Shown: one piece after another, positions 169 through 57,156 of the stretch
How positions within the stretch are numbered: the first letter of the stretch is position 1
How the letters are laid out: the number at the start of each line of letters is the position of its first letter
Source: Candidatus Woesearchaeota archaeon
GTDB taxonomy: Archaea; Nanobdellota; Nanobdellia; Woesearchaeales; JAHWIC01
Length of the DNA: 64,000 nucleotides
NCBI GenBank assembly: GCA_019322485.1
Contig: JAHWIK010000015.1
Span: forward strand, 23,216 to 87,215
Direction of reading: 5' to 3'
Program-made: the position numbers and the translations under genes
Notes under the pieces: generated by a model
The model's input: the letters and a program-made list of their open reading frames with translations, nothing else
Told to the model about the DNA's origin: nothing
Database searches by the model: none

Positions 169-169
169 A

Positions 170-2369: not shown

Positions 2370-2407
2370 TCCAAAATAAGAAGGTAGAATTACTTATAAA
2401 GGTTTGG

Positions 2408-3421: not shown

Positions 3422-3517
3422 AGTCTTTTCACTTATTGAGGTTTTTCATACATAATCTAGAAGATTATATAATTTATATAATACGGGAAAATTAGGTACT
3501 TTATAAACCTTTTGTTT

Positions 3518-4114: not shown

Positions 4115-4115
4115 T

Positions 4116-6555: not shown

Positions 6556-6556
6556 T

Positions 6557-24838: not shown

Positions 24839-26016
24839 TTTTTCTTCCTCTTTTTAGGCTTTAGTTTCTTTATCATTATTATCAATGCTGCAGCTATAAT
24901 AGCTAAGGCAACTGCCACATACAACAATGGAGATACCTTTCTTTCTGCTTCGTGCAGCTCTATTGTAAACTCCCTTTCAAAGGTTTTATCTTTATAGTAA
25001 GCCTTTGCCTTTAGTTCATAAGATCCAAGCTCCAGCTCATGCGCTTCCCAATGAAGCCTTACAGAGCTGTTCCTGTTTGGTTCGATATCAATCCTGTTTG
25101 CTTCCATAGCTGCAATTACTGTGCCATTCCTGATAATATCTGCAGTCAGGTTAACATCCTCAAGCTCTTTATTCCAGTTTGACCCTAAGAACATATTTAT
25201 CCTGTTGATTTTATCAACAACAGCAGTTCTTGTTCCTAAGAAAATCAGCACCCCTTCTTCACCAATCCTAAAACTTCCAGTTTCTTCTACTGCTTTTCCG
25301 GAAAACTTAATGATTGATTCTGCATCATACTCACCAGGCTTGAACAGGAACTTCTTTATGGTTAATTGGTTTTCATGACTTTTTCCAGGCTCAATAGTAA
25401 ATGTTGCTTTTGGCAGGGATAGTATCTTCTTCTCTGTATTTCCCAGAATCTTATAACCAAGCACTACATCATGGAATCCATTTACAAGTGCAGCTTTGTA
25501 CAGGCTTGCAACTTTCTCTTTATTCTCATATATGTTAAGGTCATTCTCTATTCCTCCAATTGTTATTGCGCCTTTGTTTTCCATTACTGTTGTAAATTTC
25601 ATAAGATATTGGCTGTCATCAATAACCAAAAGCTCTGTTTTAAGGTATTCCTCAGGATACGGAACAAATAAATTAACCGTATGATGTACTGATGGCTTTG
25701 TTGTTACTGTTCCTGAACCTGCTGGTTCTTCATATACAACTATCTTAGCCTGATGCTCGCCAGGCCCGAAAGGCCCTGATAGGTTAAAGCTGAATTCTTT
25801 TGGGCCTATTACAACCCCTTCACGCGCAATCTCCACGTCAAGCTCACCTTCAACACCAATTGTAATCCTTGTTGGAAGGTTTGATGAAGGTATAACTGTA
25901 AAAACACCTGAATGCTCTTTATTCCCAAAGAAATCTGTCTTTGCGGGCATTGCCCCTAAAGCAAACACAGCGTCTATTGAAAGCACCAATATAATAAATA
26001 AAATCCATTTTTTCAT
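24835..26016 (-). CDS. secreted protein with an N-terminal signal peptide and a C-terminal TM anchor plus KKRKKK tail (393 aa)
   Basis: Signal 'MKKWILFIILVLSIDAVFALG'; C-terminal 'PLLYVAVALAIIAAALIIMIKKLKPKKRKKK'; start overlaps the giant gene's stop. Confidence 0.45.
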   Translation of the reverse strand: MKKWILFIILVLSIDAVFALGAMPAKTDFFGNKEHSGVFTVIPSSNLPTRITIGVEGELDVEIAREGVVIGPKEFSFNLSGPFGPGEHQAKIVVYEEPAGSGTVTTKPSVHHTVNLFVPYPEEYLKTELLVIDDSQYLMKFTTVMENKGAITIGGIENDLNIYENKEKVASLYKAALVNGFHDVVLGYKILGNTEKKILSLPKATFTIEPGKSHENQLTIKKFLFKPGEYDAESIIKFSGKAVEETGSFRIGEEGVLIFLGTRTAVVDKINRINMFLGSNWNKELEDVNLTADIIRNGTVIAAMEANRIDIEPNRNSSVRLHWEAHELELGSYELKAKAYYKDKTFEREFTIELHEAERKVSPLLYVAVALAIIAAALIIMIKKLKPKKRKKK

Positions 26017-29000: not shown

Positions 29001-32000
29001 GTTTTGTGTGCTGTTGCAGCCAGTTGGTGAGCATGTATAGTTTTCCCGGCCAGGGCAGGCAGAATTGTTATAACAGCTGTAATCATTGCAGTCACCATCT
29101 TGCAGGTAGGTGTTTGCTCCAAAGTGGTATTGATATGATGCATTTGTCCATCCAGGGTTCTGCATCTGGCTGATGTAATAATCCTGGTCATTATCAAAAA
29201 CATCTGTACAGTTTCTTTCAATAATTAATTCACAGTTTTGTCCTGACGGGCCGATAGCTGTATCATTGCAGTCTTGGTCATATCTATAGCTGTCATAAGC
29301 AATAGCATACGGCCAGAATTGGTTTGGAGTGAGACCATATGCATAATAGATGCAGTCTATTCCGCCTGATAGGTTTTCCACTCTGTTTGAATCTAATAAA
29401 TAATCAGTTATGTTGTAGACATACCTGTCTAGGTCATTGTCAACTCCATCAGTGCACAATGATGCTGTTTCTGTTGTAGGGCATGCAGAGTCATTTGCAC
29501 AGTCATAATCATCACAATCATAGCCGCCAGAGGCGCTTGTCCTATTCCCGCCAGGATTGTATGCATTATCTAAGTCATTGTCATAACCATCTGTACAGTT
29601 TATCTCGTGGCCTAGCTCACATTTTCCAGGACCCATATCAACACCATCACAGTCTGCATCAGGGTAGTGGTTTCCATCATAGTTATATCTGCAGTCCATT
29701 CCACCGCCATACTGGTTGTTTGTTGCACTATATTGTGTTCCTGTCCAGCCGGTTATTGTATAATAATCAAGGTCATTATCCTTGTTGTCAGAACAGTTTG
29801 CTCCATCATTTTCCCAATAGTTTGTTACATTGCATGTTGATTGGCAGTCATACTCTCCATGTGCAATGTTGCTTCCACCTGCACCATATTGATAATTTGG
29901 GTTTGTTGTTGAGGCTCCTGTTGAGGTCGTATTGCAGTCAAGTTCCCCATCCTGGTCATTATCAAATCCATCTGAGCAGCTTGTTTCAAAGATTAATTGG
30001 CATGTTCCTGCTGGCAATACAGAACTATTGCAGTCTATATCATACTCTACCATCCTGCAGTCAGCTCCTGCTCCTGGCAAGCCCGAGTAAAAGTCTAGGT
30101 CATTGTCCTTTCCGTCAATGCATGTTATTCCTGACTCATTTATGGGACAGTTTGAATCATTGAAACAATCATATTCTCCATGAGGATAAGTTCCTCCACC
30201 AGAATAGGTTGACCTGGGGTTAGTTGGATTGCTTAAGTACTGGATTACCCCGCCTGTAAAGAATGCTGTTGTGTTGCAGTCAAATGCTCTGTCACGGTCA
30301 TTATCAAACAAGTCATTACATATTGTTTCTACCCCTAATTCGCATGTGCCATTGATTCCTCCAACATTATAGCTGAGCCAGCTTGAGTTTAGGATGTATG
30401 TGTTGTTGCAGTCAGTGTCCCATGTACCTGCATTATAATGGCAGTCTGTATCACCATCATCGTCATTGTCAAAGCCGTCTGTGCAGGAGTTATTTGTTGC
30501 AGCATATTTGCTTTCATTCTGGTAAGCGCATAAAGGATAGGTTCCGTCAGGGTTTGCCGATGTTGAACCAATATAAGCGTCGCAATCAATGTCAATACAG
30601 TCTGTTGTATAATCCAAGTCATTGTCATATGAGTCTGCACAAGATATATCATGTTCATCTCTTACGCCGTCATCTGAAATATTTATGTTAAATTTAAAGT
30701 CATATGCTGAACCATTAAATATCCTGTTCAAGACTAAGCCATACATTCCATAGAAGTTGTTTGTTGTATTCATCATTGCTTTTAGGACATTATCTAATGT
30801 GCTTTGGGTGTAAGGTGTTGGGTCAGAAGGAGGATTTGGGCCAGACTGGGCAATTATTGAGTTAGCACTTGTTGTTTTTCCGCTTAGACCGGTTGTTGCG
30901 GAGTAGTTTAATATCCAGAAATCACCAGGGTTTTCCTGCCATAATGATGTATTGAACTGCCACACCTTGAAATAAGCTGTATAGCCTGTTATTTGCGAGG
31001 TTTGATACAGCCTCATACTAAACAATGCTTCTGGCTGTATCTTGTATGTGTAAGTGACTGCTGTGTTCGATGCTGTTCCAGTGCATAAGTTTGGTGCGCA
31101 TGAAGCATCACAGGTTCCACCGTCTATGCATTGAAGTGACCCATCTAAATCACCTGGGTCATATGGCGGGTCATCTCTCCAGCCAGCTGCTGTTTTGTTG
31201 CAAGTCCATGCAGGAGTGCCCTGCTTGTTTGTATTAGAGCCCCCTACAATATAATATTCTCCGTAGACAATTGAAGCGCAGTCTGAATCCTCACAATCTA
31301 TTTTACCATCTCCATCATCATCTGCATTATTAGCACAGTGCGTCTCCACAACGTCAGGGGTATTCTTTTTCTTTATTGAGAAGTCAACGTCTTTTGCACC
31401 ATAATAATATGATGAGTCTGCGGGATTATAGAAAACACTTGAACAGGTGTTGTTTTCAAGGAAGTAGTTTGAGTTATCTACGCCGGCTGCACAGTTTGCT
31501 GCCCTGGTCACATAACCTACATACCATGCATAGTTGAGGGCAGCTTTACCCTCGTAGAAAGCAAGTTGCACTGTTCCGTTTAATCTTCTGCCAGATGTTA
31601 CAGGTATTGTGCATGTCCTGTGGCATTCTTCACCAACAGGGCATGTTGAATCCTCAGAGTTATTGACATTAGTCACTGTATTGCTTTGGCTTATTGTATA
31701 GGATATAGAGTAATTATTTCCTGCTGTGTTGGTAACTGTTTCTGCTCCATCTGCATAGTTCGAGTCCATGCAGGAGAAATTAGCTTTTAGGTTTTCGATT
31801 ATTCCTTCTCCGATTACTGTCAGATTTATTACTGAACCATCTTCGTAGAACACCCTTCTCCTGTAATTATTTGAGGTATCTGCCACTCTCAACAGGAAGA
31901 ATCCTACTGTTCCTGATGAGCTAGCTCCTCCTGTTATTTCTGTAATAGATGATAACTCTTTTCCATCAGGGATTATGAAGAAGTTTAGTGAACTGACAAG

Positions 32001-32063
32001 TAAGAGGATAATACAAAGTACTAATTTAATAATTTCAGATATCTTTTTTGTTTTATCTTTCAT
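26013..32063 (-). CDS. giant (2016 aa) cell-surface protein with ~14 MopE-like putative metal/Ca-binding repeats (C[ST]DGxDND[LQD]D...DC); N/T/S/D/G/Y-rich with many N-glycosylation sequons
   Basis: Uninterrupted 6051-nt ORF. N-terminal signal-anchor 'IIKLVLCIILLLVSSLNFFIIP'. Repeated motifs such as 'CTDGFDNDDDGDTDC', 'CSDGFDNDQDGELDC', 'CTDGYDNDLDN' and 'CANNADDDGDGKIDCEDSDC'. Almost no K/R/E in the mature region. Confidence 0.7.
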   Translation of the reverse strand: MKDKTKKISEIIKLVLCIILLLVSSLNFFIIPDGKELSSITEITGGASSSGTVGFFLLRVADTSNNYRRRVFYEDGSVINLTVIGEGIIENLKANFSCMDSNYADGAETVTNTAGNNYSISYTISQSNTVTNVNNSEDSTCPVGEECHRTCTIPVTSGRRLNGTVQLAFYEGKAALNYAWYVGYVTRAANCAAGVDNSNYFLENNTCSSVFYNPADSSYYYGAKDVDFSIKKKNTPDVVETHCANNADDDGDGKIDCEDSDCASIVYGEYYIVGGSNTNKQGTPAWTCNKTAAGWRDDPPYDPGDLDGSLQCIDGGTCDASCAPNLCTGTASNTAVTYTYKIQPEALFSMRLYQTSQITGYTAYFKVWQFNTSLWQENPGDFWILNYSATTGLSGKTTSANSIIAQSGPNPPSDPTPYTQSTLDNVLKAMMNTTNNFYGMYGLVLNRIFNGSAYDFKFNINISDDGVRDEHDISCADSYDNDLDYTTDCIDIDCDAYIGSTSANPDGTYPLCAYQNESKYAATNNSCTDGFDNDDDGDTDCHYNAGTWDTDCNNTYILNSSWLSYNVGGINGTCELGVETICNDLFDNDRDRAFDCNTTAFFTGGVIQYLSNPTNPRSTYSGGGTYPHGEYDCFNDSNCPINESGITCIDGKDNDLDFYSGLPGAGADCRMVEYDIDCNSSVLPAGTCQLIFETSCSDGFDNDQDGELDCNTTSTGASTTNPNYQYGAGGSNIAHGEYDCQSTCNVTNYWENDGANCSDNKDNDLDYYTITGWTGTQYSATNNQYGGGMDCRYNYDGNHYPDADCDGVDMGPGKCELGHEINCTDGYDNDLDNAYNPGGNRTSASGGYDCDDYDCANDSACPTTETASLCTDGVDNDLDRYVYNITDYLLDSNRVENLSGGIDCIYYAYGLTPNQFWPYAIAYDSYRYDQDCNDTAIGPSGQNCELIIERNCTDVFDNDQDYYISQMQNPGWTNASYQYHFGANTYLQDGDCNDYSCYNNSACPGRENYTCSPTGCNSTQNWCLDSIDNDLDNYLSDGINLSTAAGAGIDCAWNNYDSDCNNTYINDSGNIGLCTIRWEYNCSDGVDNDQDLGTYYVGESGSAHAGANTGEDCDDYNCYAVQESGLYVCTDDGSGLSIVEQTCNDTLDNDLDAYTWNGTEYETNDASGTDCGDPDCNGLLGPGDILCALFEEMYFDPFDDTLCGDYNSSGTTAYSMDNDGDNLANCYDTGCYHQGLCRVCPPEENVTLDSCMDGLNNEYEYQDEYISKTNYDPNEINASLNDGVYDCRDSDCDGIVGVWSTSQGICNSASAGTGYRTTESACTDSYDNDFDNSVDCEDSDCSSGASCLAPYTNSLAACTLKCSDAAAVSYIGGEPPDYSVNTNWGGGTPDLTYTEYHWRGKNLTFTFTDSATNVNGKTIQIYLGSASATYVPLDYEMNASNSGIYGTDSGNFNVQYSAQSGYHYQAVLIEYSGAYPNQILNLTFWITVPDNDTIVQNSSFSYYVSTSIGGVEQNADVTQYILETEPPQAPVFVKTTPADDDYTTSRLRMIKTDNTVTRLSASDTVYVRVNATDSGTWNSGVELCQFNDGTGWVNETSAYDCRYALTLSDGLNTIYARAVDGVGNIGPNTSLTIDVRTLPKQTTGFFCIDTNCSTSYPTKDYYVPTETLNVAVNFTSTYGFTANASGCVVYAEKNSPGSRISLGSVPLASTGMCNGTVSLSGLSEGYYTVEVELRDDNDTRTVSGELPWSNGNSKENIWVCDYTQTYNGYTCKDACEREEANRPSKVILKSPESGNTTTELRPTFTWYNATYNGSTTAKYEIEIDDSPIFTSLDYSRGNLSEGSNNETSHTLISDLELDKTYFWRVRAYHSIISGEWSDVWNFTLSSYIAINLTRDVVDFGVVIPGFSESTEDDSPLPLLLENVGNLIVNISINATDLFETVPNPNESYQFAIGVNESGSFTSATTTLTPMPSNSTPAIYNLNWEDASDTAEIDLNATVPLLEPSGQKNSTILVRTT

Positions 32064-32729: not shown

Positions 32730-33452
32730 TTATTCAACATAAACCTTTTCCTTTCCTAGATTCTTAAATGGAATCTCACCAAATCTGCAATTTCTGCAGG
32801 TTGCATCCAAATCAACCCAGTGGTCCATTGATTTATAGCTTTTCAGGGCATCTGGAAGATAAGCCTGGACATAAACATGCCTTGGAATGAAAACTAACCT
32901 TGTGTTTACACCAATTGCTTCTAAGAGAGTTGCTAATAGAACAGCAGCATCATCGCAGTCACCACCCTGAACAGAAAGAGATTCTTTGGCTGTCTTAACA
33001 TACTCAAACTCATTTGGGTCAGAGACATAATTGAAATTATCACGAATAAAATAATAGAGGGCTTTTGCATGGCATACGCGATTAGTAGGGCAGCCCATAA
33101 CTGAAACCCTGTCAGCAGTCTGCTTGATTAAAGGGTCTGTTGGGTCTATTAACTCCAAGAAATCGTATTTGTTGGTCACATTATGTTTTGTAAGGTTTAA
33201 TGAGAATTCTGGAACAACCTCGCTGATTGTTGGAATATAATTAGGTGCAGGATCAATCTTTATAGAATAAGAAGGAACCAGCCATAGCACAACTAATAAT
33301 AACAGAAATATTGCCATAATCCATTTTATAGGGCCTCTCCACCATGGCTCTTGCTCAATATCCTCATGAACTTCGTGTTCTTCTTCCATATTGATTGTTT
33401 TTTCTTCTATGTTTATATTGTTTTTGTTTGAGGAAAGCTTTATAAATCGCAT
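32730..33452 (-). CDS. membrane-anchored transglutaminase-like cysteine protease domain protein
   Basis: TM helix, then 'VQGGDCDDAAVLLATLLEAIGVNTRLV' (transglutaminase-core Cys motif) and downstream His/Asp. Confidence 0.55.
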   Translation of the reverse strand: MRFIKLSSNKNNINIEEKTINMEEEHEVHEDIEQEPWWRGPIKWIMAIFLLLLVVLWLVPSYSIKIDPAPNYIPTISEVVPEFSLNLTKHNVTNKYDFLELIDPTDPLIKQTADRVSVMGCPTNRVCHAKALYYFIRDNFNYVSDPNEFEYVKTAKESLSVQGGDCDDAAVLLATLLEAIGVNTRLVFIPRHVYVQAYLPDALKSYKSMDHWVDLDATCRNCRFGEIPFKNLGKEKVYVE

Positions 33453-33996: not shown

Positions 33997-35889
33997 ATGG
34001 TTAAAGAGGAGTTAGATAGAAGTCACTTTCTTGATTTAGTCAGTAGTCCGAAGGATTTGAGGCTGTTGAATAAGCAGCAGTTAGATATGCTTGCTGAGGA
34101 ATTAAGAAGGCTAATAATTGAAACTGTAAGCAAGACAGGCGGCCACTTAGCGTCCAGCCTTGGTGTTATTGAATTAACTATTGCTTTGCATTATGTTTTT
34201 GACTCACCAAATGACAAGATAGTATGGGATGTTGGACATCAGGCTTATGCACATAAGCTGTTAACAGGAAGAAAAAATAAGTTCCATACCTTAAGGCAGC
34301 ACAAGGGCATAGCTGGTTTTCCAAAATCAAAGGAGAGCCCTCACGATGCCTTTGATACTGGACACAGCTCAACAGCAATATCAGCAGCTTTAGGAATAGC
34401 AGCTGCTCGCGATTTAAAGCATGAAAAAAACAAGGTGATAGCTGTTATTGGAGACGGAGCTTTAACTGGCGGAATGTCTTTTGAAGCCTTAAATCATGCT
34501 GGCTCATTAAAGAAAGACCTCATAGTAATCCTTAATGATAATGAGATGTCAATAAGCAAGAATGTAGGTGCTTTATCCTCTTATCTTTCAAAGCTGGTAT
34601 CAAAGCCTGGTTATGTCGACAGAAGAAAGAAAGTAGAAAGGATTTTAAGGGGGATACCTGGCCTGAGAAGGCAGGCTGCTAAGGTTTTTGGAATCGAGGA
34701 TACAATAAGGGCTTTAGCAGCTACAACTCCTGGCCTGATATTCAGGGAGCTTGGTTTTAGGTATTTTGGACCTGTTGATGGCCATAATATCGAGCAGATG
34801 ATAAAAACATTAGAGAACATAGAACAGCTTAAAGGTCCTATATTGCTTCATGTCATAACAAAAAAAGGGAAAGGCTATAGCTATGCAGAAGCTGACAGGA
34901 CAAGGTTTCATGGCATTGCGCCATTCAACATAGAGAATGGTGAAAAGAAGCACAAGAGCAGCGTTACATACACAACAGCATTCTCAAGATGTTTGACAAA
35001 GCTTGCAAAGCAGGACAAAAGGGTAGTTGCAATAACAGCAGCAATGAAGCCTGGAACAGGATTAGACCAGTTTGCAGGAATGTTTCCAGACAGGTTATTT
35101 GACGTCGGCATAGCAGAGCAGCATGCAGTTACATTTGCAGCTGGCTTGGCTAAGAACGGCTATAAGCCGGTATGCGCGATTTATTCTACTTTCCTGCAAA
35201 GGGCTTATGACCAGATTGTGCACGATGTTTGTTTGCAGAACCTGCCTGTTGTCTTTGCAATTGATAGAGCTGGCTTGGTCGGAGAGGACGGACCAACACA
35301 TCATGGAAGTTTTGATTTATCTTATCTGAGGCATATACCAAACATGACTGTAATGGCTCCAAAGGACGAGAATGAACTGGGGCATATGCTAAAAACAGCT
35401 TTAGAGATTGACGGGCCGGTTGCAGTAAGATACCCAAGAGGTACGGGCTTGGGGGTTGCAATACAGAACCCATACCACCCAATAGAATTAGGAAAAGCAG
35501 AAGTAATGCAGAAAGGAAAAGATTTGGCAATATTAGCAGTTGGTTCTTGCGTTGATATGGCGAATAAGGCTGCTGAGAAACTGGGGAAGAATAAAATAAA
35601 TGCAACCGTTGTTAATGTAAGGTTTGTAAAGCCTCTGGACGAGAAACTAATACTGAACCTAGCAAAGAAACACAGGAAACTGATTACTATAGAGGAGAAT
35701 GCATTAGATGGCGGTTTTGGTTCTGGTGTGCTGGAATTGTTGGAGCAGTATAACACCAAGGCAACGGTAAAAAGAATTGGAATACCTGATAAATTTGTAG
35801 AGCACGGTTCAATGTCAATCTTAAGAGAAAAAATTGGATTAACTGAGGATAATATAGTGAAGGAAGCGAAGTCGTTGATGGCAAAATGA
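33997..35889 (+). CDS. dxs: 1-deoxy-D-xylulose-5-phosphate synthase
   Basis: Signature 'GGHLASSLGVIELTIALHYVFDSPNDKIVWDVGHQAYAHKLLTGR', ThDP-binding 'GDGALTGGMSFEALNHAG', 630 aa. Confidence 0.9.
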   Translation: MVKEELDRSHFLDLVSSPKDLRLLNKQQLDMLAEELRRLIIETVSKTGGHLASSLGVIELTIALHYVFDSPNDKIVWDVGHQAYAHKLLTGRKNKFHTLRQHKGIAGFPKSKESPHDAFDTGHSSTAISAALGIAAARDLKHEKNKVIAVIGDGALTGGMSFEALNHAGSLKKDLIVILNDNEMSISKNVGALSSYLSKLVSKPGYVDRRKKVERILRGIPGLRRQAAKVFGIEDTIRALAATTPGLIFRELGFRYFGPVDGHNIEQMIKTLENIEQLKGPILLHVITKKGKGYSYAEADRTRFHGIAPFNIENGEKKHKSSVTYTTAFSRCLTKLAKQDKRVVAITAAMKPGTGLDQFAGMFPDRLFDVGIAEQHAVTFAAGLAKNGYKPVCAIYSTFLQRAYDQIVHDVCLQNLPVVFAIDRAGLVGEDGPTHHGSFDLSYLRHIPNMTVMAPKDENELGHMLKTALEIDGPVAVRYPRGTGLGVAIQNPYHPIELGKAEVMQKGKDLAILAVGSCVDMANKAAEKLGKNKINATVVNVRFVKPLDEKLILNLAKKHRKLITIEENALDGGFGSGVLELLEQYNTKATVKRIGIPDKFVEHGSMSILREKIGLTEDNIVKEAKSLMAK

Positions 35890-36923
35890 GAAGCAAAACA
35901 AAAGAAATCAGGATTGGAAAACTGAAGATTGGCGGAGATAATCCTATTGCAATACAGTCAATGACTAATACTGATACAAAAGACGAGGAAGCAACAATAA
36001 AACAGATTCATGAGCTAGAGGAGAATGGCTGCGAGATAGTTAGGGTTTCTGTTCCTGACAAGGAATCGTTGCTTTCATTAAGAGCAATAAAAGAAAACAT
36101 AAGCATTCCATTGGTTGCTGATATTCATTTTGACCATAAATTAGCTGTAGAAGCTGCAAGGATTGCAGACAAGATAAGGATTAACCCAGGAAATATTGGG
36201 AAAGAGAACCTGAAAGAGGTTGTTGATGCTGTTATGGATTCAAATATTCCGATGAGGGTGGGGATTAACCTAGGTTCTTTGGAAAAAGACATTGAGAAGA
36301 AGTTTGGCCTTACTGCATTAGGTATGGTTGAGAGCGCAATGAGGTCTGTGAAAGAGATAGAAAGGCTTGGCTTCTACAATATGGTTATTTCATTAAAGGC
36401 TTCTGATGTGTTAAAGACAATAGAAGCTTACAGATTGTTTTCACAGAGGTCACAATACCCTTTACACGTCGGTATAACCGAGTCTGGGAGCAGTTTTACA
36501 GGAACTGTTAATTCATCAGTTGGAATTGGAGCTTTATTATTGCAGGGAATTGGAGATACAATCCGCGTTTCATTATCAGCTGAGCCTGTTGAAGAGGTTA
36601 AAGTTGGCTGGCAGATTCTGAAAGCACTTAGGCTTAGGAAGAGGGGGATTGACATAACAAGCTGCCCAACGTGCGCAAGAAAAGGCATAGATGTTATCAA
36701 TATTGTCAAGGAGCTTGAGCAAAGAACCTCAAAAATGAACAAGCCTTTGCATATTGCAGTTATGGGCTGCGGTGTTAATGGTCCAGGAGAAGCTAAAGAA
36801 GCTGATATTGGTGTTGTCGGCGGAAAAGGAAATGTTTTGCTTTACAAGAATGGAATGATGGTCGGCAATATTGAGGGAGATGTTCTTGAAAGGTTGATGA
36901 AGGAGATAGAGAATTCAAAATGA
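35886..36923 (+). CDS. ispG: 4-hydroxy-3-methylbut-2-en-1-yl diphosphate synthase (GcpE/IspG)
   Basis: 'IRIGKLKIGGDNPIAIQSMTNTDTKD' N-terminal TIM-barrel signature; C-terminal [4Fe-4S] ligands 'CPTCAR...MGCGVNGPGE'; start overlaps the dxs stop. Confidence 0.9.
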   Translation: MRSKTKEIRIGKLKIGGDNPIAIQSMTNTDTKDEEATIKQIHELEENGCEIVRVSVPDKESLLSLRAIKENISIPLVADIHFDHKLAVEAARIADKIRINPGNIGKENLKEVVDAVMDSNIPMRVGINLGSLEKDIEKKFGLTALGMVESAMRSVKEIERLGFYNMVISLKASDVLKTIEAYRLFSQRSQYPLHVGITESGSSFTGTVNSSVGIGALLLQGIGDTIRVSLSAEPVEEVKVGWQILKALRLRKRGIDITSCPTCARKGIDVINIVKELEQRTSKMNKPLHIAVMGCGVNGPGEAKEADIGVVGGKGNVLLYKNGMMVGNIEGDVLERLMKEIENSK

Positions 36924-38305
36924 GCTGGAAATTAATCACATTAAAACAGTATCCGATGTTCTCGAGATGGTGGATACATGAAGCGTTTCTCCACGATATG
37001 AAAGATACTTTAGGTATGAATTTTAAAATGTACAAATCGCTCTATAGCGGGACTTATGCTGATAGTGATGAGGTTGAAAAGTTAAGGTCTATGTTAATAT
37101 CTAAACTTGAAAAAGATATTGATTCAATTAGGAAATTATGTGAGAATTGGAAACATGATTGTGATGAGCTTATTAGATTTACAAAAGAATTAGAAAAATC
37201 GGACTTCTCAAAAAACTCTGATGAGGAATTAGTTAATTTATCAGAGAATTGCATTAAAAAATTAAGAAGAAGCGCTTCATATATTTATCTGTCAGTTGTT
37301 TTGGATGAATATTTTCAGAATTGGCTGAATAAAATACTTGAAGCTAAGGTTCAGGACCAGAATGAGAGGACAAAATACTTCCAAATTCTTACATCTCCAA
37401 CAAAAAATACTAAATTAATTGACGCTAAGAAGGTATTAATTGAGATTTCTAAAGTTGTTAAAGAGAAAGGTCTTGAGGGAGCAGAGGACTTAATCAAAGA
37501 TTATGTATCTAAATTTAAATGGCTTGGATATGATACTGGAATTGGAAGTGATTTAACTATAGAACAAACAAAGGATAAGATTTCTAATATTCTTGAGCAA
37601 AAACAGCACGACTCTGATGTTAAAAATAGGGATGAGGTCTTGTCTGAGTTGGATCTCAATGAAAAAGATAAAGAATTACTTGACTTGATGGACGAACTTA
37701 TTTTCCTAAGGACTTATAGGGCTGAAAGCAATATGGTTGCAGGAGCTGATATAAGGCCTATTCTTGAAGAACTTGCAAAAAGAGCCAATACAAATTATGA
37801 TAATCTAGTTCAATTAACCATTGATGAAATAAAAGACTCAATAAAGTCAAAAAAAGTAGACTTGAAGAAGATTGAGGAGAGAAAGAATAAGTATGGCTTG
37901 TTAATGGTCGATGGAAAGAATACAATCTACAGTGGAGATGAAGTGGATAAAGTAGAGGAAAAGGTTGAAGTTCCTGAAGGATTGACAGAGTTAAAAGGAT
38001 TAGTAGCACACCATGGAAATAAGAGGGGCCATGTTAAGATTGTTTTGAGGCATAAAGACTTTGATAAGATTGAATTTGGAGATATTTTGGTAACAAAGAT
38101 GACTAATCCTGATTTTATAGTTGTTTTAGAACAGTGTTCTGGAATAATTACAGACATTGGAGGGATAACCTCTCATGCAGCGATTGTTGCACGAGAACTA
38201 AACAAGCCATGCATTACAGGAACTCAATATGCTACAAAAGTCTTGAAAGATGGTGACTTAGTTGAGCTTGATACAGATAAAGGCATTGTAAAGATAATAA
38301 AATGA
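36920..38305 (+). CDS. PEP-utilising-enzyme mobile (phosphohistidine swivel) domain protein with a ~340-aa helical N-terminal region of unknown function
   Basis: C-terminal 'GIITDIGGITSHAAIVARELNKPCITGT' is the PpsA/PPDK/rifampin-phosphotransferase His-domain signature. There is no ATP-grasp or PEP-binding TIM-barrel domain. Start and stop overlap ispG and ispDF by 4 nt each. Confidence 0.6.
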   Translation: MSWKLITLKQYPMFSRWWIHEAFLHDMKDTLGMNFKMYKSLYSGTYADSDEVEKLRSMLISKLEKDIDSIRKLCENWKHDCDELIRFTKELEKSDFSKNSDEELVNLSENCIKKLRRSASYIYLSVVLDEYFQNWLNKILEAKVQDQNERTKYFQILTSPTKNTKLIDAKKVLIEISKVVKEKGLEGAEDLIKDYVSKFKWLGYDTGIGSDLTIEQTKDKISNILEQKQHDSDVKNRDEVLSELDLNEKDKELLDLMDELIFLRTYRAESNMVAGADIRPILEELAKRANTNYDNLVQLTIDEIKDSIKSKKVDLKKIEERKNKYGLLMVDGKNTIYSGDEVDKVEEKVEVPEGLTELKGLVAHHGNKRGHVKIVLRHKDFDKIEFGDILVTKMTNPDFIVVLEQCSGIITDIGGITSHAAIVARELNKPCITGTQYATKVLKDGDLVELDTDKGIVKIIK

Positions 38306-39453
38306 ACATAGCAATCATAACAGCAGCTGGAAAAGGAACAAGGATGAATGAAAAAGTCAATAAAATATTGTTATCTTTAGTCGATAAATCAATAATTGAA
38401 GAAACAATCGAGGTTTTTGAGGCGTGTAAAGATATTGATGAGATAATTATTGTTGGAAACAGCGATGATATTGAATCATTAAACAAAATCAATGAAAAAA
38501 ATAATTATAAAAAAATTAAAAAAATCATTGAAGGCGGAGAACAACGGCAGGATTCAGTGTTTAATGGAATAAAATCCATTGAAAATGCGAGTAATGATGA
38601 TATTTTATTGATTCATAATGGTGCAAACCCCCTTGTAGACGAGAAAACGATTCTTGAATGTATTAAAGAAGCAAAGGAGCATGGGGCAGCTGTTGCTGCA
38701 ATGCCTGCAAAAGATACAATAAAACAGGTTGAGAATGGTTTTGTTGCTAAAACATTGGATAGAAAGCAGCTCTGGCAGATGCAGACACCGCAAACAATCC
38801 AGTTTGGGCTTGCGAAAGAGGCTTTTGAAAAGGCATTTGCTGATAATTTCTATGGAACTGATGATGTTGGGCTTGTAGAAAGGCTTGGAAAAAAGGTTAA
38901 GATTGTTGAGTGCAATACTGAGAACGTAAAAATCACAACAAAGAATGATTTAGAACAAGCAAGACTCTTGCTTAATGCTTCTGTTGTTGGAATCGGACAG
39001 GATTCCCACAAATTTACCGACGAGAAAAAGGATTTAGTTTTGGGTGGTGTAGTAATTCCAAATGAGCAGGGCTTAGAAGCAAACTCTGATGGTGATGTCA
39101 TCCTGCATGCCTTGTTTAATGCTTTAAGCCAGGCAGCTGGAGAAAAATCATTGGGAAATTATGCAGATTCAATGTGTGAGAATGGAATAAAAGACAGCAG
39201 AGAGTATCTAAGAGTGATTTTAGACATAATCAACAAGAAAAATTACAAGATAAATAATGTTGGCTTTATGATAGAAGCAAAAAAGCCAAGGCTAGGGGCT
39301 AATGAAGACAGAATAAAAGAGAATATTGCAAATTTATTGGGAATAACTAAAGATAAAGTTGGAATAACAGCAACCTCAGGAGAGGAATTAACTCCATTTG
39401 GCCAGGGCAAGGCAATACAGGTATTTTCAGTTGCAAGCTTAACAAGAAAATAA
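38302..39453 (+). CDS. ispDF: bifunctional IspD/IspF (MEP cytidylyltransferase / MEcPP synthase)
   Basis: N-terminal 'MNIAIITAAGKGTRM' (IspD); C-terminal 'GIGQDSHKFTD' and 'SDGDVILHALFNALSQAAG' (IspF metal/CDP-binding motifs). Confidence 0.9.
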   Translation: MNIAIITAAGKGTRMNEKVNKILLSLVDKSIIEETIEVFEACKDIDEIIIVGNSDDIESLNKINEKNNYKKIKKIIEGGEQRQDSVFNGIKSIENASNDDILLIHNGANPLVDEKTILECIKEAKEHGAAVAAMPAKDTIKQVENGFVAKTLDRKQLWQMQTPQTIQFGLAKEAFEKAFADNFYGTDDVGLVERLGKKVKIVECNTENVKITTKNDLEQARLLLNASVVGIGQDSHKFTDEKKDLVLGGVVIPNEQGLEANSDGDVILHALFNALSQAAGEKSLGNYADSMCENGIKDSREYLRVILDIINKKNYKINNVGFMIEAKKPRLGANEDRIKENIANLLGITKDKVGITATSGEELTPFGQGKAIQVFSVASLTRK

Positions 39454-39474: not shown

Positions 39475-40344
39475 ATGTCAAAAACCAAGGTTTTTAACAT
39501 GATCCAGCTAAAAGCACACGCAAAGATAAACCTGACCTTAGATGTACTTGCAAGGCTGGATGACGGCTATCATCGGATAGAATCTATAAAACAGCAGGTT
39601 GGTTTGCACGATAAAATCTCATTAGGGCCATTGGATGATATAAAGGTAATCTGCAGCCATCCTAACATAACCACAAAAGAAAATCTTGTCTTTAAAACAG
39701 CATTGTTGCTAAAAAATGAATTTAATGTAGCAGAGGGAGCGAAGATAACAATAGAAAAAAATATTCCATTAGCTGCTGGCTTGGCTGGAGGCTCATCAGA
39801 CGCAGCAGCAACCCTGGTAGGATTAAACAAGCTTTGGAAACTTGAGCTTGATGAGCAGGAACTGACAAAATTAGCTGCAGAGATTGGAATGGATGTTCCT
39901 TTTTCTGTTGTTGGCGGTTCTTGTTTTGCAGAGGGCAAAGGCACTAAACTAAGCAGGATAGAGCTGCCTGAGATGCATGTGCTGTTAATCAACCCTGGTT
40001 TTGAAGTCTCTACAAGAACAGCTTACCAAAGCCTTGACTTGTCAAGAACAGGAAAGGCAATGGCAACAAAGAAACTATTGGAAGTAAGGAACATGGGTGT
40101 GAGAGAAATATCAAAGGTCATGCATAATGACTTTGAAGCTGTGGTGCTGGGGAAGCATTCTATTCTGAAAGAGATAAAGGGCAAATTAATGGAGAATAAT
40201 GCCTTGAATGCAATAGTATCTGGCTCAGGGCCAACTGTTTTTGGCTTGTTTGAGGATGAATCAACTATAAGCAAGGCTTACGAATCTCTTAAAGAAACTT
40301 ATCCATTTGTATTCATGACAAAAACAGTAGCGAGGAAAGAATGA
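39475..40344 (+). CDS. ispE: 4-diphosphocytidyl-2-C-methyl-D-erythritol kinase (GHMP kinase)
   Basis: 'AHAKINLTLDV' and GHMP motif 'PLAAGLAGGSSDAAATLVGLNKLW'. Confidence 0.85.
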   Translation: MSKTKVFNMIQLKAHAKINLTLDVLARLDDGYHRIESIKQQVGLHDKISLGPLDDIKVICSHPNITTKENLVFKTALLLKNEFNVAEGAKITIEKNIPLAAGLAGGSSDAAATLVGLNKLWKLELDEQELTKLAAEIGMDVPFSVVGGSCFAEGKGTKLSRIELPEMHVLLINPGFEVSTRTAYQSLDLSRTGKAMATKKLLEVRNMGVREISKVMHNDFEAVVLGKHSILKEIKGKLMENNALNAIVSGSGPTVFGLFEDESTISKAYESLKETYPFVFMTKTVARKE

Positions 40345-41153
40345 GAATTAAAAAAGCAAAGCACTCTGGATTTTGTTTTGGTGTTAAGAGGGCAGTAGAG
40401 TCAGCGCTGGGCACAGAGGGGGAAGTAAAGACATTAGGCCCATTAATACATAATCCTCAGTTTATAGCAGAGCTTGAGAAAAAGGGAATAAAATCTGTTG
40501 ATTCTGTCGATGAGGTTGAAAAAGGCTCTTTGATAATAAGGGCGCATGGTGTCCCGGATTCTGTTATAGAAAAGGCCAGGGGAAAAGGGCTTAATGTAAC
40601 TGATTTAACATGTCCTTTTGTCAGGAAGGTGCATGATTATGCTAAGGAATTCTACAAACAAGGCTATAGTGTGGTTGTGGTTGGAGAGAAAAACCATCCT
40701 GAGGTTGTAGGAATAATTGGCAACATTGATGGTATTGTTGTGGGCAATGCAGATGATGCAAGGAAACTTGGCAGGTTCGAAAAGATTGGAGTGGTTGCAC
40801 AAACAACACAATCACTTGAGAACTTTAACAATGTTGTTGATGAGCTGAAAAAGCATACAGATGAGTTAAAGGTACATAATACCATATGCTCTGAAACAGA
40901 TTCAAGGCAGAAACACGCTATTGAGCTGGCAAAAGAGGTTGACTTGATGATAGTTATTGGGGGGAGAAACTCTGGAAATACCAGAAGGCTTGCCCAGCTT
41001 TGCTCTAAATTAACTGAAACAAAGCATATTGAGTCTGAGGATGAGTTAAAGGAGGGGTGGTTTGCAGGCAAGGGTTGTGTTGGGATAACAGCTGGCGCTT
41101 CAACACCGGACAGCACAATCAAGAAGATTGAGGATAGAATCAGGGAGATATGA
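40341..41153 (+). CDS. ispH: 4-hydroxy-3-methylbut-2-enyl diphosphate reductase (LytB/IspH)
   Basis: 'HSGFCFGVKRAVE', 'LTCPFVRKVH', 'ICSETDSRQ' and 'VIGGRNSGNTRRL' LytB motifs. Confidence 0.85.
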   Translation: MRIKKAKHSGFCFGVKRAVESALGTEGEVKTLGPLIHNPQFIAELEKKGIKSVDSVDEVEKGSLIIRAHGVPDSVIEKARGKGLNVTDLTCPFVRKVHDYAKEFYKQGYSVVVVGEKNHPEVVGIIGNIDGIVVGNADDARKLGRFEKIGVVAQTTQSLENFNNVVDELKKHTDELKVHNTICSETDSRQKHAIELAKEVDLMIVIGGRNSGNTRRLAQLCSKLTETKHIESEDELKEGWFAGKGCVGITAGASTPDSTIKKIEDRIREI

Positions 41154-41157
41154 GATT

Positions 41158-42246
41158 ATGGAATTCATACAAGCAGTAGGGCAATACAAGGGAATAGTCA
41201 ATAAGACTTTAAGCACGTTCTTTGATAATCATATCAATAAAACACAGGATGGCTTTCTAAAATTTAATTATTCTACACTTAGGGATTATGTTTTGCGGGA
41301 CGGCAAGAGATTAAGGCCAATCACACTGATAATGGCTTACAAGTCAATAACTGATAATGATGAGCAGAAGATTTACATGCCTTCTTTGAGTATGGAACTG
41401 TTCCATGCTTCCTCATTAATACATGATGATATAATGGATGAGGATGATTTAAGGAGGGGAAAAGAGAGCATGCATACCCTGTTTAACCAGTGGTTTGTTG
41501 ATAATCACGGCCAGGCAGGCTATAATGGGCCTATATTTAACCAGTTATCTACTAAGTTTGGGGTTTCTATGGCAATACTGCAGGGAAATATACTGATTGC
41601 TTTAGGTGAGTCCTGCTTGTCAGGCTCCTCATTTGCCCCGGAACAGATAAAGGCTGCTTTAATGGTGTGCAATAACACAAACAAGGTAGTTAATGAAGGC
41701 CAGATACAGGACATTGTTCTGGAGACAAAGAGGGAGTTTACTGAAAATGATTATTTGAGTATGATTGCTAAGAAAACAGGCAAATTATTCAGCACATCTC
41801 TTGAGATAGGTGCAGTATTTGCAGGTGCAACAGATTCTCAGAGAAAAGCGCTTGATAATTATGCATTATCTGCAGCAACAACATTCCAGATACAGGACGA
41901 TATAATGGACATAAGCCCTGATATGAAAAAGGGGCATGAGGTTGGCTCTGATATAAAGCAGGGAAAAAGAACCTTGCTTGTTATGAAGGCCCTGGAAAAA
42001 GGGGATGAAGGCCAAAAAAAGGTTTTGTTTGATGCTCTTGGCAATGAGAAAGCAACACCAGAAGAAATAGAGATTGCTATCGATGTTATGCACGCTACAG
42101 GGGCAGTTGATTATGCAAAGAATCTTGCAGCTGATATGATTAAGAAAGGAAAGGATGCGCTTAAGGAAGCAGACCCTGCTTTATCTTCTGATGGATTGAA
42201 GTTCTTTAATGATTTAGCAGATTATATGGTAAATAGAAATGTCTAG
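41158..42246 (+). CDS. idsA: trans-polyprenyl diphosphate synthase (probable GGPP synthase); start moved to the Met after the ispH stop
   Basis: FARM 'LIHDDIMDEDDLRRGKES' and SARM 'FQIQDDIMD'; last gene of the MEP cluster. Confidence 0.8.
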   Translation: MEFIQAVGQYKGIVNKTLSTFFDNHINKTQDGFLKFNYSTLRDYVLRDGKRLRPITLIMAYKSITDNDEQKIYMPSLSMELFHASSLIHDDIMDEDDLRRGKESMHTLFNQWFVDNHGQAGYNGPIFNQLSTKFGVSMAILQGNILIALGESCLSGSSFAPEQIKAALMVCNNTNKVVNEGQIQDIVLETKREFTENDYLSMIAKKTGKLFSTSLEIGAVFAGATDSQRKALDNYALSAATTFQIQDDIMDISPDMKKGHEVGSDIKQGKRTLLVMKALEKGDEGQKKVLFDALGNEKATPEEIEIAIDVMHATGAVDYAKNLAADMIKKGKDALKEADPALSSDGLKFFNDLADYMVNRNV

Positions 42247-42764
42247 GATTTGATTAGTTTCTCTAGCTTGTCCCAATTGTCTGCTGAGTTTTCTTCGCAG
42301 TTATAGGTTGCCAGCTTGACTCCTTGAGGTATGACCTTGACTTTGTATGCATGAGCTCCTTTAGAGTTTACTTTCTCATTTCTTATGCTTTTTTTAATCT
42401 CTTCAGAGCAGGCAAAGCCAATAACTCCTCTTGGCTTGTGTTTCTTTATAATCCTCTTCATGAAGTTAAGAGAAGGAACAACAAAGAATTTAGAGCCAAG
42501 GCCTTCGCTTAATTTTCTTATGTCCCCTATCTTACACAGTCCGCAGCTGATGCACTTAACCCCTTCTAATGAATCAAGCCTTGCAGGACATTTAGGATTT
42601 CTTAAGCAGTGAGGCAGAAAAACGGCTCTTTCATTCTTAGGTATTTTCCTGAAGTCTTCCTCATAATATTTGTTGATAGCATCTAGGATATCATGTTTTA
42701 TTCCTAATAGCTTTCTAAGTGGATATAACGATACTGTCAGGAAGAATTTCACTTTTTTATTCAT
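42243..42764 (-). CDS. Cys-rich protein, possibly DUF116-like (173 aa)
   Basis: Conserved cysteines 'LPHCLRNPKCPARL...CISCGLCKIG...GFAC'; convergent with the GGPP synthase gene. Confidence 0.3.
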   Translation of the reverse strand: MNKKVKFFLTVSLYPLRKLLGIKHDILDAINKYYEEDFRKIPKNERAVFLPHCLRNPKCPARLDSLEGVKCISCGLCKIGDIRKLSEGLGSKFFVVPSLNFMKRIIKKHKPRGVIGFACSEEIKKSIRNEKVNSKGAHAYKVKVIPQGVKLATYNCEENSADNWDKLEKLIKS

Positions 42765-57130: not shown

Positions 57131-57156
57131 TAAAAATTAAAAAAATAAAAAAGAAA

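What the first reader, a model, noticed from the sequence alone, without database searches (positions are those of the whole stretch)
36920..38305. PEP-utilising phosphohistidine-domain protein inserted in the MEP operon where dxr (IspC) is missing
The only MEP step with no gene in the operon is DXP reductoisomerase. In its place, overlapping ispG (ATGA) and ispDF (ATGA), sits a 461-aa protein. Its C-terminus is the mobile His-swivel domain of PEP synthase / PPDK / rifampin phosphotransferase ('GGITSHAAIVARELNKPCITGT'). Its N-terminal ~340 aa are helical and of unknown function, and there is no ATP-grasp or PEP-binding barrel. A phosphotransfer protein tightly co-translated with MEP enzymes has no described role in this pathway. 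It could be a novel kinase or phosphocarrier acting on a pathway intermediate, a regulator, or part of a split PpsA whose other parts are elsewhere.
Basis: partly seen in the sequence, partly recalled or inferred. Interest (0 to 1): 0.75.

Follow-up and report, generated by a model that had tools for sequence, protein, structure and literature searches.

The report
Split small-molecule dikinase subunit in MEP operon
The gene sitting where dxr "should" be in this archaeon's isoprenoid (MEP) operon is the substrate-binding and phosphohistidine half of a two-part, rifampin-phosphotransferase-like kinase; it does not replace DXR, because a normal dxr gene lies on another contig of the same genome.

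Summary
A 461-aa ORF (36920-38305, +) lies between ispG and ispDF with ATGA overlaps on both sides. It has only a C-terminal PEP-utilizers swivel domain, and neither the operon nor the 64-kb window contains dxr.

The interpretation mostly fails. The same MAG (Ca. Woesearchaeota, locus prefix KY360) encodes a canonical Dxr (MBW2979868.1) on another contig. Sister genomes (Yap2000.bin4.8, YT1_182, the L009 genome) also keep dxr away from the operon, so dxr was relocated, not lost.

The ispG|ispDF slot holds dxr in a more distant relative. It holds a 1088-aa transglutaminase-like gene in the closest relative and nothing in an Omnitrophota copy.

By structure and profile, the protein matches the rifampin-binding plus swivel-His domains of RPH, without the ATP-grasp domain. 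That is the architecture of HpeH/CreH/PpsA, the non-ATP-binding component of two-component small-molecule dikinases. Relatives are fused to, or encoded next to, a PPDK_N ATP-grasp gene. None of 80 related loci carries MEP genes.

The substrate is unknown, and no partner gene was found in this window. Verdict: an ordinary new member of a known enzyme kind, placed in the operon in one lineage only. Interest is low to moderate.

The parts
36920..38305 (+). CDS of protein X (461 aa; GenBank MBW2980312.1, KY360_02750): the HpeH/PpsA-type component of a split RPH-like small-molecule dikinase.
   Evidence: ORF; identity to P0001; AF2 model pLDDT 91.2, pTM 0.87; RPH-Lm is the best structural match.
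36920..37939 (+). N-terminal, mostly helical domain (aa 1-340), homologous to the RIF-binding (second-substrate-binding) domain of rifampin phosphotransferase.
37706..37726 (+). Motif L263-R-T-Y-R267-A-E269. R267 is nearly invariant in the family and E269 is invariant in the close subfamily. The motif aligns to the RPH-Lm segment Y665-R666-E667-Y668-P669-K670, which carries the phosphotransfer residues. The register is uncertain by 1-3 residues.
   Evidence: Alignments; translation; roles of RPH Arg666/Glu667/Lys670 from PMC4844700.
37520..37540 (+). Motif W201-L-G-Y204-D205-T206-G. W201, Y204, D205 and T206 are invariant in the close subfamily. It is a candidate substrate-pocket element (inference).
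   Evidence: invariant columns; translation.
38075..38284 (+). PEP-utilizers mobile (swivel phosphohistidine) domain, aa 386-455.
   Evidence: PF00391 E 4.8e-26; matches PEP synthase 8a8e at E 6.8e-25.
38174..38176 (+). Codon of His419, the predicted phospho-carrier histidine. It sits in GGITSH, a PEPS-type motif with Thr417 at position -2.
   Evidence: Invariant in 40/40 and 15/15 aligned homologs. Aligns to RPH His825. Translation. Motif consensus from PMC12167813.
36920..36923 (+). ATGA overlap of the ispG stop codon with the X start codon.
38302..38305 (+). ATGA overlap of the X stop codon with the ispDF start codon.
33997..35889 (+). dxs (context: first gene of the operon).
   Evidence: TIGR00204 881.6 bits.
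35886..36923 (+). ispG (context).
   Evidence: NF001540 461.8 bits.
38302..39453 (+). ispDF fusion (context).
   Evidence: IspD + YgbB domains.
39475..42246 (+). ispE, ispH and idsA (context: the rest of the operon).

Best explanation
X is the substrate-binding and phosphocarrier component (HpeH/CreH/PpsA type) of a two-component, RPH-like small-molecule dikinase.

Inferred mechanism, by homology:
1. A separately encoded ATP-grasp protein (PPDK_N type) transfers the beta-phosphate of ATP to His419 of X's swivel domain, giving AMP + Pi.
2. The swivel domain then docks on X's own helical domain.
3. It passes the phosphate to a hydroxyl group of a small molecule bound there. The conserved R267/E269 segment plays the role of RPH Arg666/Glu667/Lys670.

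X neither replaces nor compensates for DXR. The MEP pathway of this organism is complete, because a canonical dxr lies on another contig.

In this Woesearchaeota subclade dxr left its ancestral slot between ispG and ispDF. That junction has since been occupied by different genes in different lineages, and X is this lineage's occupant.

X's substrate is unknown. Co-translation with MEP enzymes is shown by the sequence. A role in isoprenoid metabolism is not supported by conservation.
For: Shown:
- Fold and profile homology to RPH covers both domains. His419 is invariant and there is a conserved Arg motif at the position of the RPH catalytic segment.
- There is no ATP-grasp or PEP barrel in X.
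- Two-component precedents with exactly this division of labour are characterised biochemically: HpeHI, CreHI and PpsAB (PMC12167813).
- Partner linkage is seen in relatives. P0017 and P0016 (42-43% identical over the full length of X) carry an N-terminal PPDK_N. P0011 (45%) lies beside a stand-alone PPDK_N gene. Of 25 loci of at least 10 kb with a stand-alone X-like gene, 11 also hold a PPDK_N gene or fusion.
- dxr is elsewhere. P0245, with all 3 DXR Pfam domains, is MBW2979868.1. That is 444 accessions before X, inside the KY360 numbering, on a 187-kb contig. It is also found in run SRR14699980, which contains a contig 100% identical to window 1785-4057; GC is 0.385 vs 0.388.
- This Dxr is 64% identical to the in-operon Dxr of L011, the same divergence as Dxs, IspG and IspDF.
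- YT1_182 and Yap2000.bin4.8 have dxr far from the operon. The L009 genome has MFC1704867.1.
- Slot variability: dxr in L011, a 1088-aa Transglut_core gene in L009, nothing in L010.
- X is intact, with native-like GC3 and codon usage.
Against: - No ATP-grasp partner was found in the 64-kb window, and the rest of the genome could not be searched, so the two-component mechanism is unproven for this organism.
- X's N-domain is not recognised by the NCBIfam models that cover the PpsA-like proteins. Only the swivel part matches, far below cut-off.
- The swivel motif is of PEPS type (Thr at -2), not the Met seen in RPH and HpeH.
- Tight translational coupling on both sides is unusual for a functionally unrelated passenger gene and leaves room for a pathway-related role.
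- Assignment of dxr to the same genome rests on MAG binning, accession order and a shared sample, not on a closed genome.
Confidence: 0.62

Rival explanations
1. X is functionally tied to the operon. It would be a salvage or feeder kinase that, with an ATP-grasp partner, phosphorylates a scavenged free intermediate or product of isoprenoid metabolism. Examples are 1-deoxy-D-xylulose to DXP, 2-C-methyl-D-erythritol to MEP, or isoprenol, prenol or a polyprenol.
For: - X has ATGA translational coupling with ispG and ispDF and native-like codon usage.
- HpeHI-type dikinases have been proposed to act as scavenging systems that trap diffusible substrates (PMC12167813).
- DPANN archaea are scavengers.
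- The invariant residues of the N-domain are largely polar (Y46, E51, Y204, D205, T206, R267, E269, R288, E303, R321). This is compatible with a polar small substrate, though that is an inference.
Against: - None of the 80 X-family loci, nor the 4 contexts of closer homologs, contains MEP genes.
- The nearest homolog with a known context (P0002, 66%) sits next to a paralog and an HD protein.
- The closest MEP operon (L009) has an unrelated gene in the slot, and L010 has none.
- Close subfamily members occur in Saccharimonadales and other lineages without any visible MEP linkage.
Confidence: 0.13
2. X is an orphan or decaying subunit. It was inserted at a recombination-prone operon junction, has no partner in this genome, and has no current function.
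For: There is no partner within 64 kb. The placement is so far unique to this genome. The slot demonstrably accepts unrelated genes.
Against: - The reading frame is full-length.
- All family-invariant residues, including His419, are retained.
- The fold is predicted with confidence.
- Codon usage is indistinguishable from the operon's.
- Precise ATGA overlaps are maintained on both sides.
- Identity to homologs of 58-67% runs over the full length.
Confidence: 0.08
3. X is a phosphocarrier charged from PEP rather than ATP, for example in trans by the PEP-binding domain of the organism's own PEP synthase/PPDK or by an EI-like protein. It would then act as a regulator or kinase.
For: The swivel domain is most similar to archaeal PEP synthase (8a8e, E 6.8e-25, about 50% identity) and keeps the PEPS-type GGxTSH motif with the regulatory Thr.
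Against: - Relatives are fused or adjacent to ATP-grasp domains, not to PEP-utilizers_C barrels.
- There is no PEP-utilizers_C gene in the window.
- All characterised enzymes with this RIF-BD-like domain use ATP.
Confidence: 0.05
4. X is a non-homologous replacement for DXR, converting DXP to MEP by new chemistry.
For: Only its position: it occupies the slot that holds dxr in L011.
Against: - A canonical dxr is present in the same MAG and in sister genomes.
- X has no NAD(P)H-binding or DXR-like domain.
- Its fold is a phosphotransferase fold.
- The closest relative's slot holds a transglutaminase-like gene.
Confidence: 0.01

Closest known systems
HpeH / CreH / PpsA: the swivel-plus-substrate-binding component of the two-component small-molecule dikinases HpeHI, CreHI and phenylphosphate synthase PpsAB
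   Same: The architecture is the same: an RPH RIF-BD-like helical substrate-binding domain followed by a C-terminal swivel phosphohistidine domain, with no ATP-grasp in the polypeptide. In many family members the ATP-grasp is supplied by a separate, often adjacent PPDK_N-type protein.
   Different: - X is about 460 aa, against about 600 aa for HpeH and PpsA.
- Its N-domain has no detectable sequence match to the PpsA-type NCBIfam models (PRK08296 group); only the swivel part matches, at 95.6 bits against a cut-off of 578.
- The swivel motif is of PEPS type (Thr at -2) rather than Met.
- It occurs in DPANN archaea and CPR bacteria rather than in aromatic degraders.
- No partner gene lies within 64 kb.
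- The substrate is unknown and there are no aromatic catabolic genes nearby.
Rifampin phosphotransferase RPH-Lm (PDB 5FBS/5FBT/5FBU, 5HV1)
   Different: X lacks the N-terminal ATP-grasp domain (RPH residues 1-314). Identity is only about 17%. The NCBIfam RPH model scores 79.9 bits against a cut-off of 999. There is no reason to expect rifamycins as the substrate.
PEP synthase (PpsA) / PPDK
   Same: The swivel phosphohistidine domain is about 50% identical to archaeal PEPS, including the GGxTSHAAIVARE motif.
   Different: X has no ATP-grasp and no PEP/pyruvate-binding TIM barrel. TIGR01418 scores 101 bits against a cut-off of 739.75. The second-substrate domain has a different fold, RIF-BD-like.
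DXP reductoisomerase (Dxr/IspC) and DXR-like (DRL) enzymes
   Same: Only the genomic position is shared: dxr occupies this slot in the related operon L011.
   Different: There is no sequence or fold similarity. The real Dxr of this genome is P0245/MBW2979868.1.

Membership tests
Two-component small-molecule dikinase, H/A component (HpeH/CreH/PpsA type) | C-terminal swivel phosphohistidine domain with the conserved catalytic His | tested here: met
   PF00391 E 4.8e-26. His419 is invariant in 40 homologs and aligns to RPH His825.
Two-component small-molecule dikinase, H/A component (HpeH/CreH/PpsA type) | Second-substrate-binding domain homologous to the RIF-binding domain of RPH, located N-terminal to the swivel domain | tested here: met
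Two-component small-molecule dikinase, H/A component (HpeH/CreH/PpsA type) | No ATP-grasp domain in the same polypeptide | tested here: met
   Pfam and NCBIfam and the model.
Two-component small-molecule dikinase, H/A component (HpeH/CreH/PpsA type) | A separately encoded ATP-grasp partner (HpeI/PpsB type) in the same genome, usually adjacent | tested here: inconclusive
   None in the 64-kb window, and the rest of the MAG could not be searched. Present next to, or fused with, relatives.
Two-component small-molecule dikinase, H/A component (HpeH/CreH/PpsA type) | ATP-dependent dikinase chemistry (ATP to AMP + Pi, with a phospho-His intermediate) | not testable with these tools
   Needs biochemistry. 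Inferred from HpeHI and RPH.
Two-component small-molecule dikinase, H/A component (HpeH/CreH/PpsA type) | Sequence-level membership in the curated PpsA-like models (NCBIfam PRK08296 group) | tested here: not met
   The best is NF006153 at 95.6 bits against a cut-off of 578, and only the swivel part matches. X is therefore a distinct, uncurated branch.
Rifampin phosphotransferase (RPH) | Three-domain polypeptide: ATP-grasp + RIF-BD + swivel | tested here: not met
   The ATP-grasp is absent. NF041857 scores 79.9 bits against a cut-off of 999.
PEP synthase / PPDK | PPDK_N ATP-grasp plus swivel plus PEP-utilizers_C TIM barrel | tested here: not met
   Only the swivel domain is present. TIGR01418 scores 101 bits against a cut-off of 739.75.
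DXP reductoisomerase (DXR or DRL) | NADPH-binding Rossmann domain plus DXR catalytic and C-terminal domains | tested here: not met
   X has no PF02670, PF08436 or PF13288 hit. phmmer with E. coli Dxr finds nothing in the window.

The most novel reading that the evidence does not exclude
X, charged by an ATP-grasp partner encoded elsewhere, is a dedicated salvage kinase of the MEP/isoprenoid pathway. It would, for example, phosphorylate scavenged 2-C-methyl-D-erythritol, 1-deoxy-D-xylulose or a prenol. That would be a first dikinase-type entry point into the MEP pathway and a first assigned physiological substrate for the large DPANN/CPR branch of split RPH-like dikinases.
Probability: 0.1. Interest if true: 0.7.

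Novelty: new member of a known kind. Interest (0 to 1): 0.3.

Why it matters
The attraction of the finding was an apparently DXR-less MEP pathway with a mystery phosphotransfer protein in DXR's place. That premise does not hold. The pathway is complete and the protein belongs to a recognisable enzyme class.

What remains useful:
1. It corrects the 'hypothetical protein / PEP-utilizing enzyme' annotation to 'HpeH/PpsA-type component of a split RPH-like dikinase'.
2. It shows that this class, so far characterised only in aromatic-degrading bacteria, has a large uncharacterised branch in DPANN archaea and CPR bacteria. This includes tandem arrays of diverged substrate-binding subunits that share one ATP-grasp gene.
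3. It documents that the ispG|ispDF junction of the Woesearchaeota MEP operon is a variable slot left after dxr relocated.
4. The operon embedding gives one cheap hypothesis, an isoprenoid-related substrate, for de-orphaning a member of this branch.

Tried and rejected
- Look-ups of proteins near the window ends, meant to extend the 92.6-kb contig, did not return the NCBI contig. The look-up of X itself was not on record. The remaining 28 kb of the contig and the rest of the MAG could therefore not be scanned for a PPDK_N partner.
- The supplement of Castelle et al. 2021 held no searchable MEP-neighbourhood table.
- The identity of YT1_182_00538, the gene in the same slot in that genome, is not listed in the Huang et al. 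supplement.
- The AFDB50 fold library was unavailable.
- PADLOC gave no defence-system match.
- Pfam on the N-domain alone gave only a sub-threshold FAS_I_H hit.
- The AF2 model of the fused homolog P0017 was poor in the ATP-grasp part (pLDDT below 50 for aa 1-282) and was not used.
- The HD-domain neighbour seen beside two close homologs has no ortholog in the window, so it gave no lead.
- L081, reported by tblastn at 62% identity, proved to be only a distant family member, 27% identical in the N-domain.
- Rfam and tRNA scans of the window were empty.
- Literature searches found no description of this DPANN/CPR family or of any dikinase-MEP link.
- Rejected readings: DXR replacement, degraded ppsA fragment, and defence gene.
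Full report
OBSERVATION

The ORF is real and sits where stated: window 36920-38305, + strand, 461 aa. Pfam and NCBIfam confirm its neighbours:
- dxs (33997-35889)
- ispG (35886-36923)
- a fused ispDF (38302-39453)
- ispE (39475-40344)
- ispH (40341-41153)
- a short-chain prenyl diphosphate synthase, idsA (41128-42246)

All are on the + strand. The ispG/X and X/ispDF junctions are both ATGA stop/start overlaps. X's only Pfam domain is the PEP-utilizers mobile domain at aa 386-455 (E 4.8e-26), and GGITSHAAIVARE is at aa 414-426. A phmmer search with E. coli Dxr, a stand-alone PPDK_N protein, the ATP-grasp part of a fused homolog and X itself finds no dxr, no ATP-grasp and no paralog among all six-frame ORFs of the window. 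Pfam scans of the called genes agree.

ORGANISM AND BACKGROUND

X is GenBank MBW2980312.1 (KY360_02750), from a Candidatus Woesearchaeota MAG, on a 92,607-bp contig. The window is clearly archaeal: it carries L10P, L1, S15P, Rpb7, an archaeal helicase, an ATP-dependent ligase, an archaeal CCA enzyme and FtsZ.

A bacterial-type MEP pathway with co-located genes is already documented in a Woesearchaeota clade. That work includes the ispD/F fusion and the presence of dxr (PMC8204110; PMC8421398).

IS DXR REALLY MISSING? NO.

Three lines of evidence show that dxr was relocated.

1. Operon layouts in relatives.
   - In a more distant relative (L011, IspDF 61% identical) the operon reads dxs-(152 aa)-ispG-dxr-ispDF-ispE-ispH. 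Canonical dxr therefore occupies exactly the slot where X sits here.
   - In the closest relative found (L009, IspDF 84%, IspG 90%) the same slot holds an unrelated 1088-aa transglutaminase-core protein. It too overlaps the ispDF start.
   - In an Omnitrophota genome (L010), ispG abuts ispDF directly.

2. Published annotation tables (PMC8421398 supplement).
   - In YT1_182 the order is dxs_00536, ispG_00537, an unnamed gene _00538, ispDF_00539, ispE_00540, ispH_00541. dxr is gene _00091, near bcd/etfB.
   - In Yap2000.bin4.8 (IspDF 78% identical to the window's), dxr is _00748, far from dxs/ispG at _01252/_01253.

3. A Dxr in the window's own genome. Searching with the Yap2000 Dxr sequence returned P0245. 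It is 86% identical, 376 aa, and has all three DXR Pfam domains.
   - P0245 is MBW2979868.1, 'Candidatus Woesearchaeota archaeon', on a 187,486-bp contig.
   - That accession is 444 numbers before X. X's locus tag (02750/5 = about the 550th gene) places the start of this genome's accession block earlier still, so P0245 falls inside the same submission.
   - The same protein is found on an assembly contig of run SRR14699980 (L094). That run also yields a contig 100% identical to window 1785-4057 (L093). GC is 0.385 against 0.388 for the window.
   - P0245 is 64% identical to the in-operon Dxr of L011. This equals the divergence of Dxs (65%), IspG (64%) and IspDF (61%), as expected for an orthologous gene that moved rather than a foreign replacement.

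The L009 genome likewise has a Dxr (MFC1704867.1) 95 accessions from its IspDF (MFC1704772.1).

Conclusion: with about 0.9 confidence this organism has a complete MEP pathway. The caveat is that MAG membership is inferred, not proven by a closed genome.

WHAT X IS

An AF2 model built on 40 homologs is confident (pLDDT 91.2, pTM 0.87).
- Foldseek's best solved match is rifampin phosphotransferase RPH-Lm (5FBU, E 2.5e-15, TMq 0.63).
- A profile of the family matches RPH-Lm residues 442-866 at E 2e-35. Homology therefore extends deep into the RIF-binding domain and is not only structural.

His419 is invariant and aligns to RPH His825. The segment L263-R-T-Y-R267-A-E269, with R267 nearly invariant, aligns to RPH Y665-R666-E667-Y668-P669-K670. 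In RPH, Arg666, Glu667 and Lys670 hold the phosphate during transfer (PMC4844700). The exact register is uncertain by a few residues.

[quoted passage not shown] Curated models for RPH, PEP synthase and PpsA-like proteins all match only its C-terminal part and score far below their cut-offs.

THE KNOWN KIND IT BELONGS TO

A 2025 study defined two-component small-molecule dikinases: HpeHI, CreHI and phenylphosphate synthase PpsAB. In these, one protein (HpeI/PpsB) is the ATP-grasp and the other (HpeH/PpsA) carries the RIF-BD-like and swivel domains. Both components are needed, AMP is the product, and mutating the swivel His abolishes activity (PMC12167813). X has exactly the HpeH-type architecture.

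Evidence that X's own family works this way:
- The homologs P0017 (740 aa) and P0016 (42-43% identical over all of X) carry an N-terminal PPDK_N domain.
- P0011 (45%, Saccharimonadales) lies next to a 276-aa stand-alone PPDK_N gene.
- Among 80 metagenomic loci with family members, 21 hold only fused forms. Of the 25 loci of at least 10 kb with stand-alone forms, 11 also contain a PPDK_N gene or fusion.
- An exhaustive search with the N-domain alone finds 658 representative clusters (139 at E <= 1e-10, 16 at E <= 1e-30). Most are 450-510 aa with X's layout.

X is thus not a degraded ppsA fragment. It is a full-length member of a conserved family. Its GC3 (0.29) and codon usage match the operon; ispDF has GC3 0.29.

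IS IT LINKED TO THE MEP PATHWAY?

Conservation says no.
- None of the 80 family loci has a MEP gene near the X-like gene. One apparent Dxs hit is a split transketolase.
- P0002, the 66%-identical homolog (the closest one whose context could be retrieved), lies beside a paralog and an HD-domain gene. P0010 lies beside an HD gene. P0011 and P0017 are as described above.
- In the MEP operons inspected, X occupies the slot only in this window.

What speaks for a link is only the tight translational coupling on both sides, plus the general idea that such dikinases trap scavenged substrates. I give a pathway-related substrate about 0.1-0.15 probability.

MECHANISM COMMITTED TO

Steps 1-3 are inferred by homology. 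The domain content, the conserved residues and the operon structure are shown.
1. An ATP-grasp partner encoded outside this window binds ATP and pyrophosphorylates or phosphorylates His419, with release of AMP and Pi.
2. The swivel domain returns to X's helical domain.
3. The phosphate passes to a hydroxyl group of a small, probably polar, substrate held in the cleft lined by the conserved W201-x-x-Y-D-T and R267/E269 segments.

The unresolved points are the partner in this genome and the substrate.

RIVALS

- MEP-linked salvage kinase: 0.13
- Orphan or decaying subunit: 0.08
- PEP-charged carrier: 0.05
- DXR replacement: 0.01

Each is detailed in its own section.

SIDE OBSERVATIONS

- In bacterial, CPR-like contigs (a bacterial-type MetK and a CtpB-like protease flank them), the family forms same-strand tandem arrays of up to 11 paralogs, in several cases with a single PPDK_N gene in the locus (L014, L017, L024, L038, L046), while others show no ATP-grasp gene within the fetched stretch (L023, L051, L059). 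Swivel domains stay about 52% identical while N-domains have diverged to about 25-31%. This suggests one ATP-grasp subunit serving many substrate-specific subunits.
- One ORF of at least 2,629 aa strings six X-like modules together.
- An Omnitrophota genome carries dxs-ispG-ispDF-ispE that are 74-89% identical to this archaeon's genes.

VERDICT

- Observation: confirmed.
- Interpretation: partly supported. It is a split phosphotransfer enzyme component, but it is not connected to a missing DXR.
- Novelty: a new member of a known kind.
- Interest: 0.3.

Noticed in passing
L014, L017, L023, L024, L038, L046, L051, L059 (metagenome loci): X-family genes form same-strand tandem arrays of 4-11 paralogs. 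Several arrays (L014, L017, L024, L038, L046) have a single stand-alone PPDK_N ATP-grasp gene in the locus; L023, L051 and L059 show none within the fetched stretch. Swivel domains stay about 52% identical while N-domains diverge to about 25-31%. Flanking genes are bacterial (bacterial-type MetK, CtpB-like protease) and GC is 0.39-0.46. This looks like a modular dikinase battery in which one ATP-grasp serves many substrate-specific subunits. No description was found in the searched literature.
   Followed up: partly
L036 5159-13045 (+); L050 1585-6219 (+): These are giant multi-module proteins. One ORF of at least 2,629 aa runs to the locus end and contains six consecutive X-like modules. A 1,545-aa ORF has PPDK_N, an X-like module and two extra swivel domains. 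The representative search also shows proteins of 1,100-1,500 aa with several N-domain copies (P0389, P0396, P0416).
   Followed up: partly
L010 (CP070655.1, 1.14-Mb 'Candidatus Omnitrophota' genome) 101-4899: A bacterial genome (it has LptF/G, ExoVII and YmdB nearby) carries dxs-ispG-ispDF-ispE that are 80, 89, 74 and 80% identical in protein to this archaeon's genes. There is no gene between ispG and ispDF. This suggests a recent cross-domain transfer of the dxr-less form of the operon.
   Followed up: partly
L009 443-3709 (+), between ispG and ispDF: In the closest relative's MEP operon, the slot that X occupies here holds a 1088-aa transglutaminase-core protein that overlaps the ispDF start. 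In YT1_182 an unnamed gene (_00538) sits there. The junction is therefore a repeatedly re-used insertion point after dxr relocated.
   Followed up: partly
window 15432-17414 (-): Ribosomal protein L10P/P0 is encoded as a 660-aa ORF. The L10 and insertion domains cover only the first ~180 aa, and the last ~370 aa form a Lys/Glu/Pro-rich low-complexity extension.
   Followed up: partly
window 26013-32063 (-): A 2,016-aa protein with a signal or anchor-like N-terminus and many Cys/Asp/Asn-rich repeats (DNDxD-type motifs), presumably a giant surface protein. Other PKD/Big_9/cadherin-like surface proteins lie at 54977-58272.
   Followed up: no
L012 11143-12786 (+) and 8702-9967 (+): In another Woesearchaeota genome, ispE and ispH are fused into one 547-aa protein, and a Peptidase_U32 gene lies directly upstream of ispDF. 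No dxs, ispG or dxr lies within 10 kb.
   Followed up: no
window 42243-42764 (-); L012 13859-14392 (-): A DUF116 gene convergent with idsA is conserved at the end of the MEP/idsA cluster in both genomes. A small transglutaminase-like gene upstream of dxs (window 32730-33452) is also conserved in L011.
   Followed up: no
window 4116-7807 (-): A cluster of PAP2 phosphatase, a VCA0040-like (undecaprenyl-phosphate translocase-like) protein, a nucleotidyltransferase and the CCA-adding enzyme. A related set (CCA-adding enzyme, nucleotidyltransferase, VCA0040-like) lies near the L012 MEP cluster, so polyprenyl-phosphate handling genes sit in the wider neighbourhood.
   Followed up: no
window 1-64000: No tRNA gene (ARAGORN) and no Rfam family at gathering threshold was found in 64 kb.
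   Followed up: yes
contexts of P0002 and P0010 (L001 9459-10058): Two close homologs of X (66% and 47% identity) each have a ~200-aa HD-domain phosphohydrolase gene close by: directly adjacent to P0010, and one gene away from P0002, upstream of its paralog. There is no ortholog in the window. This may be a functional partner of the subfamily.
   Followed up: partly
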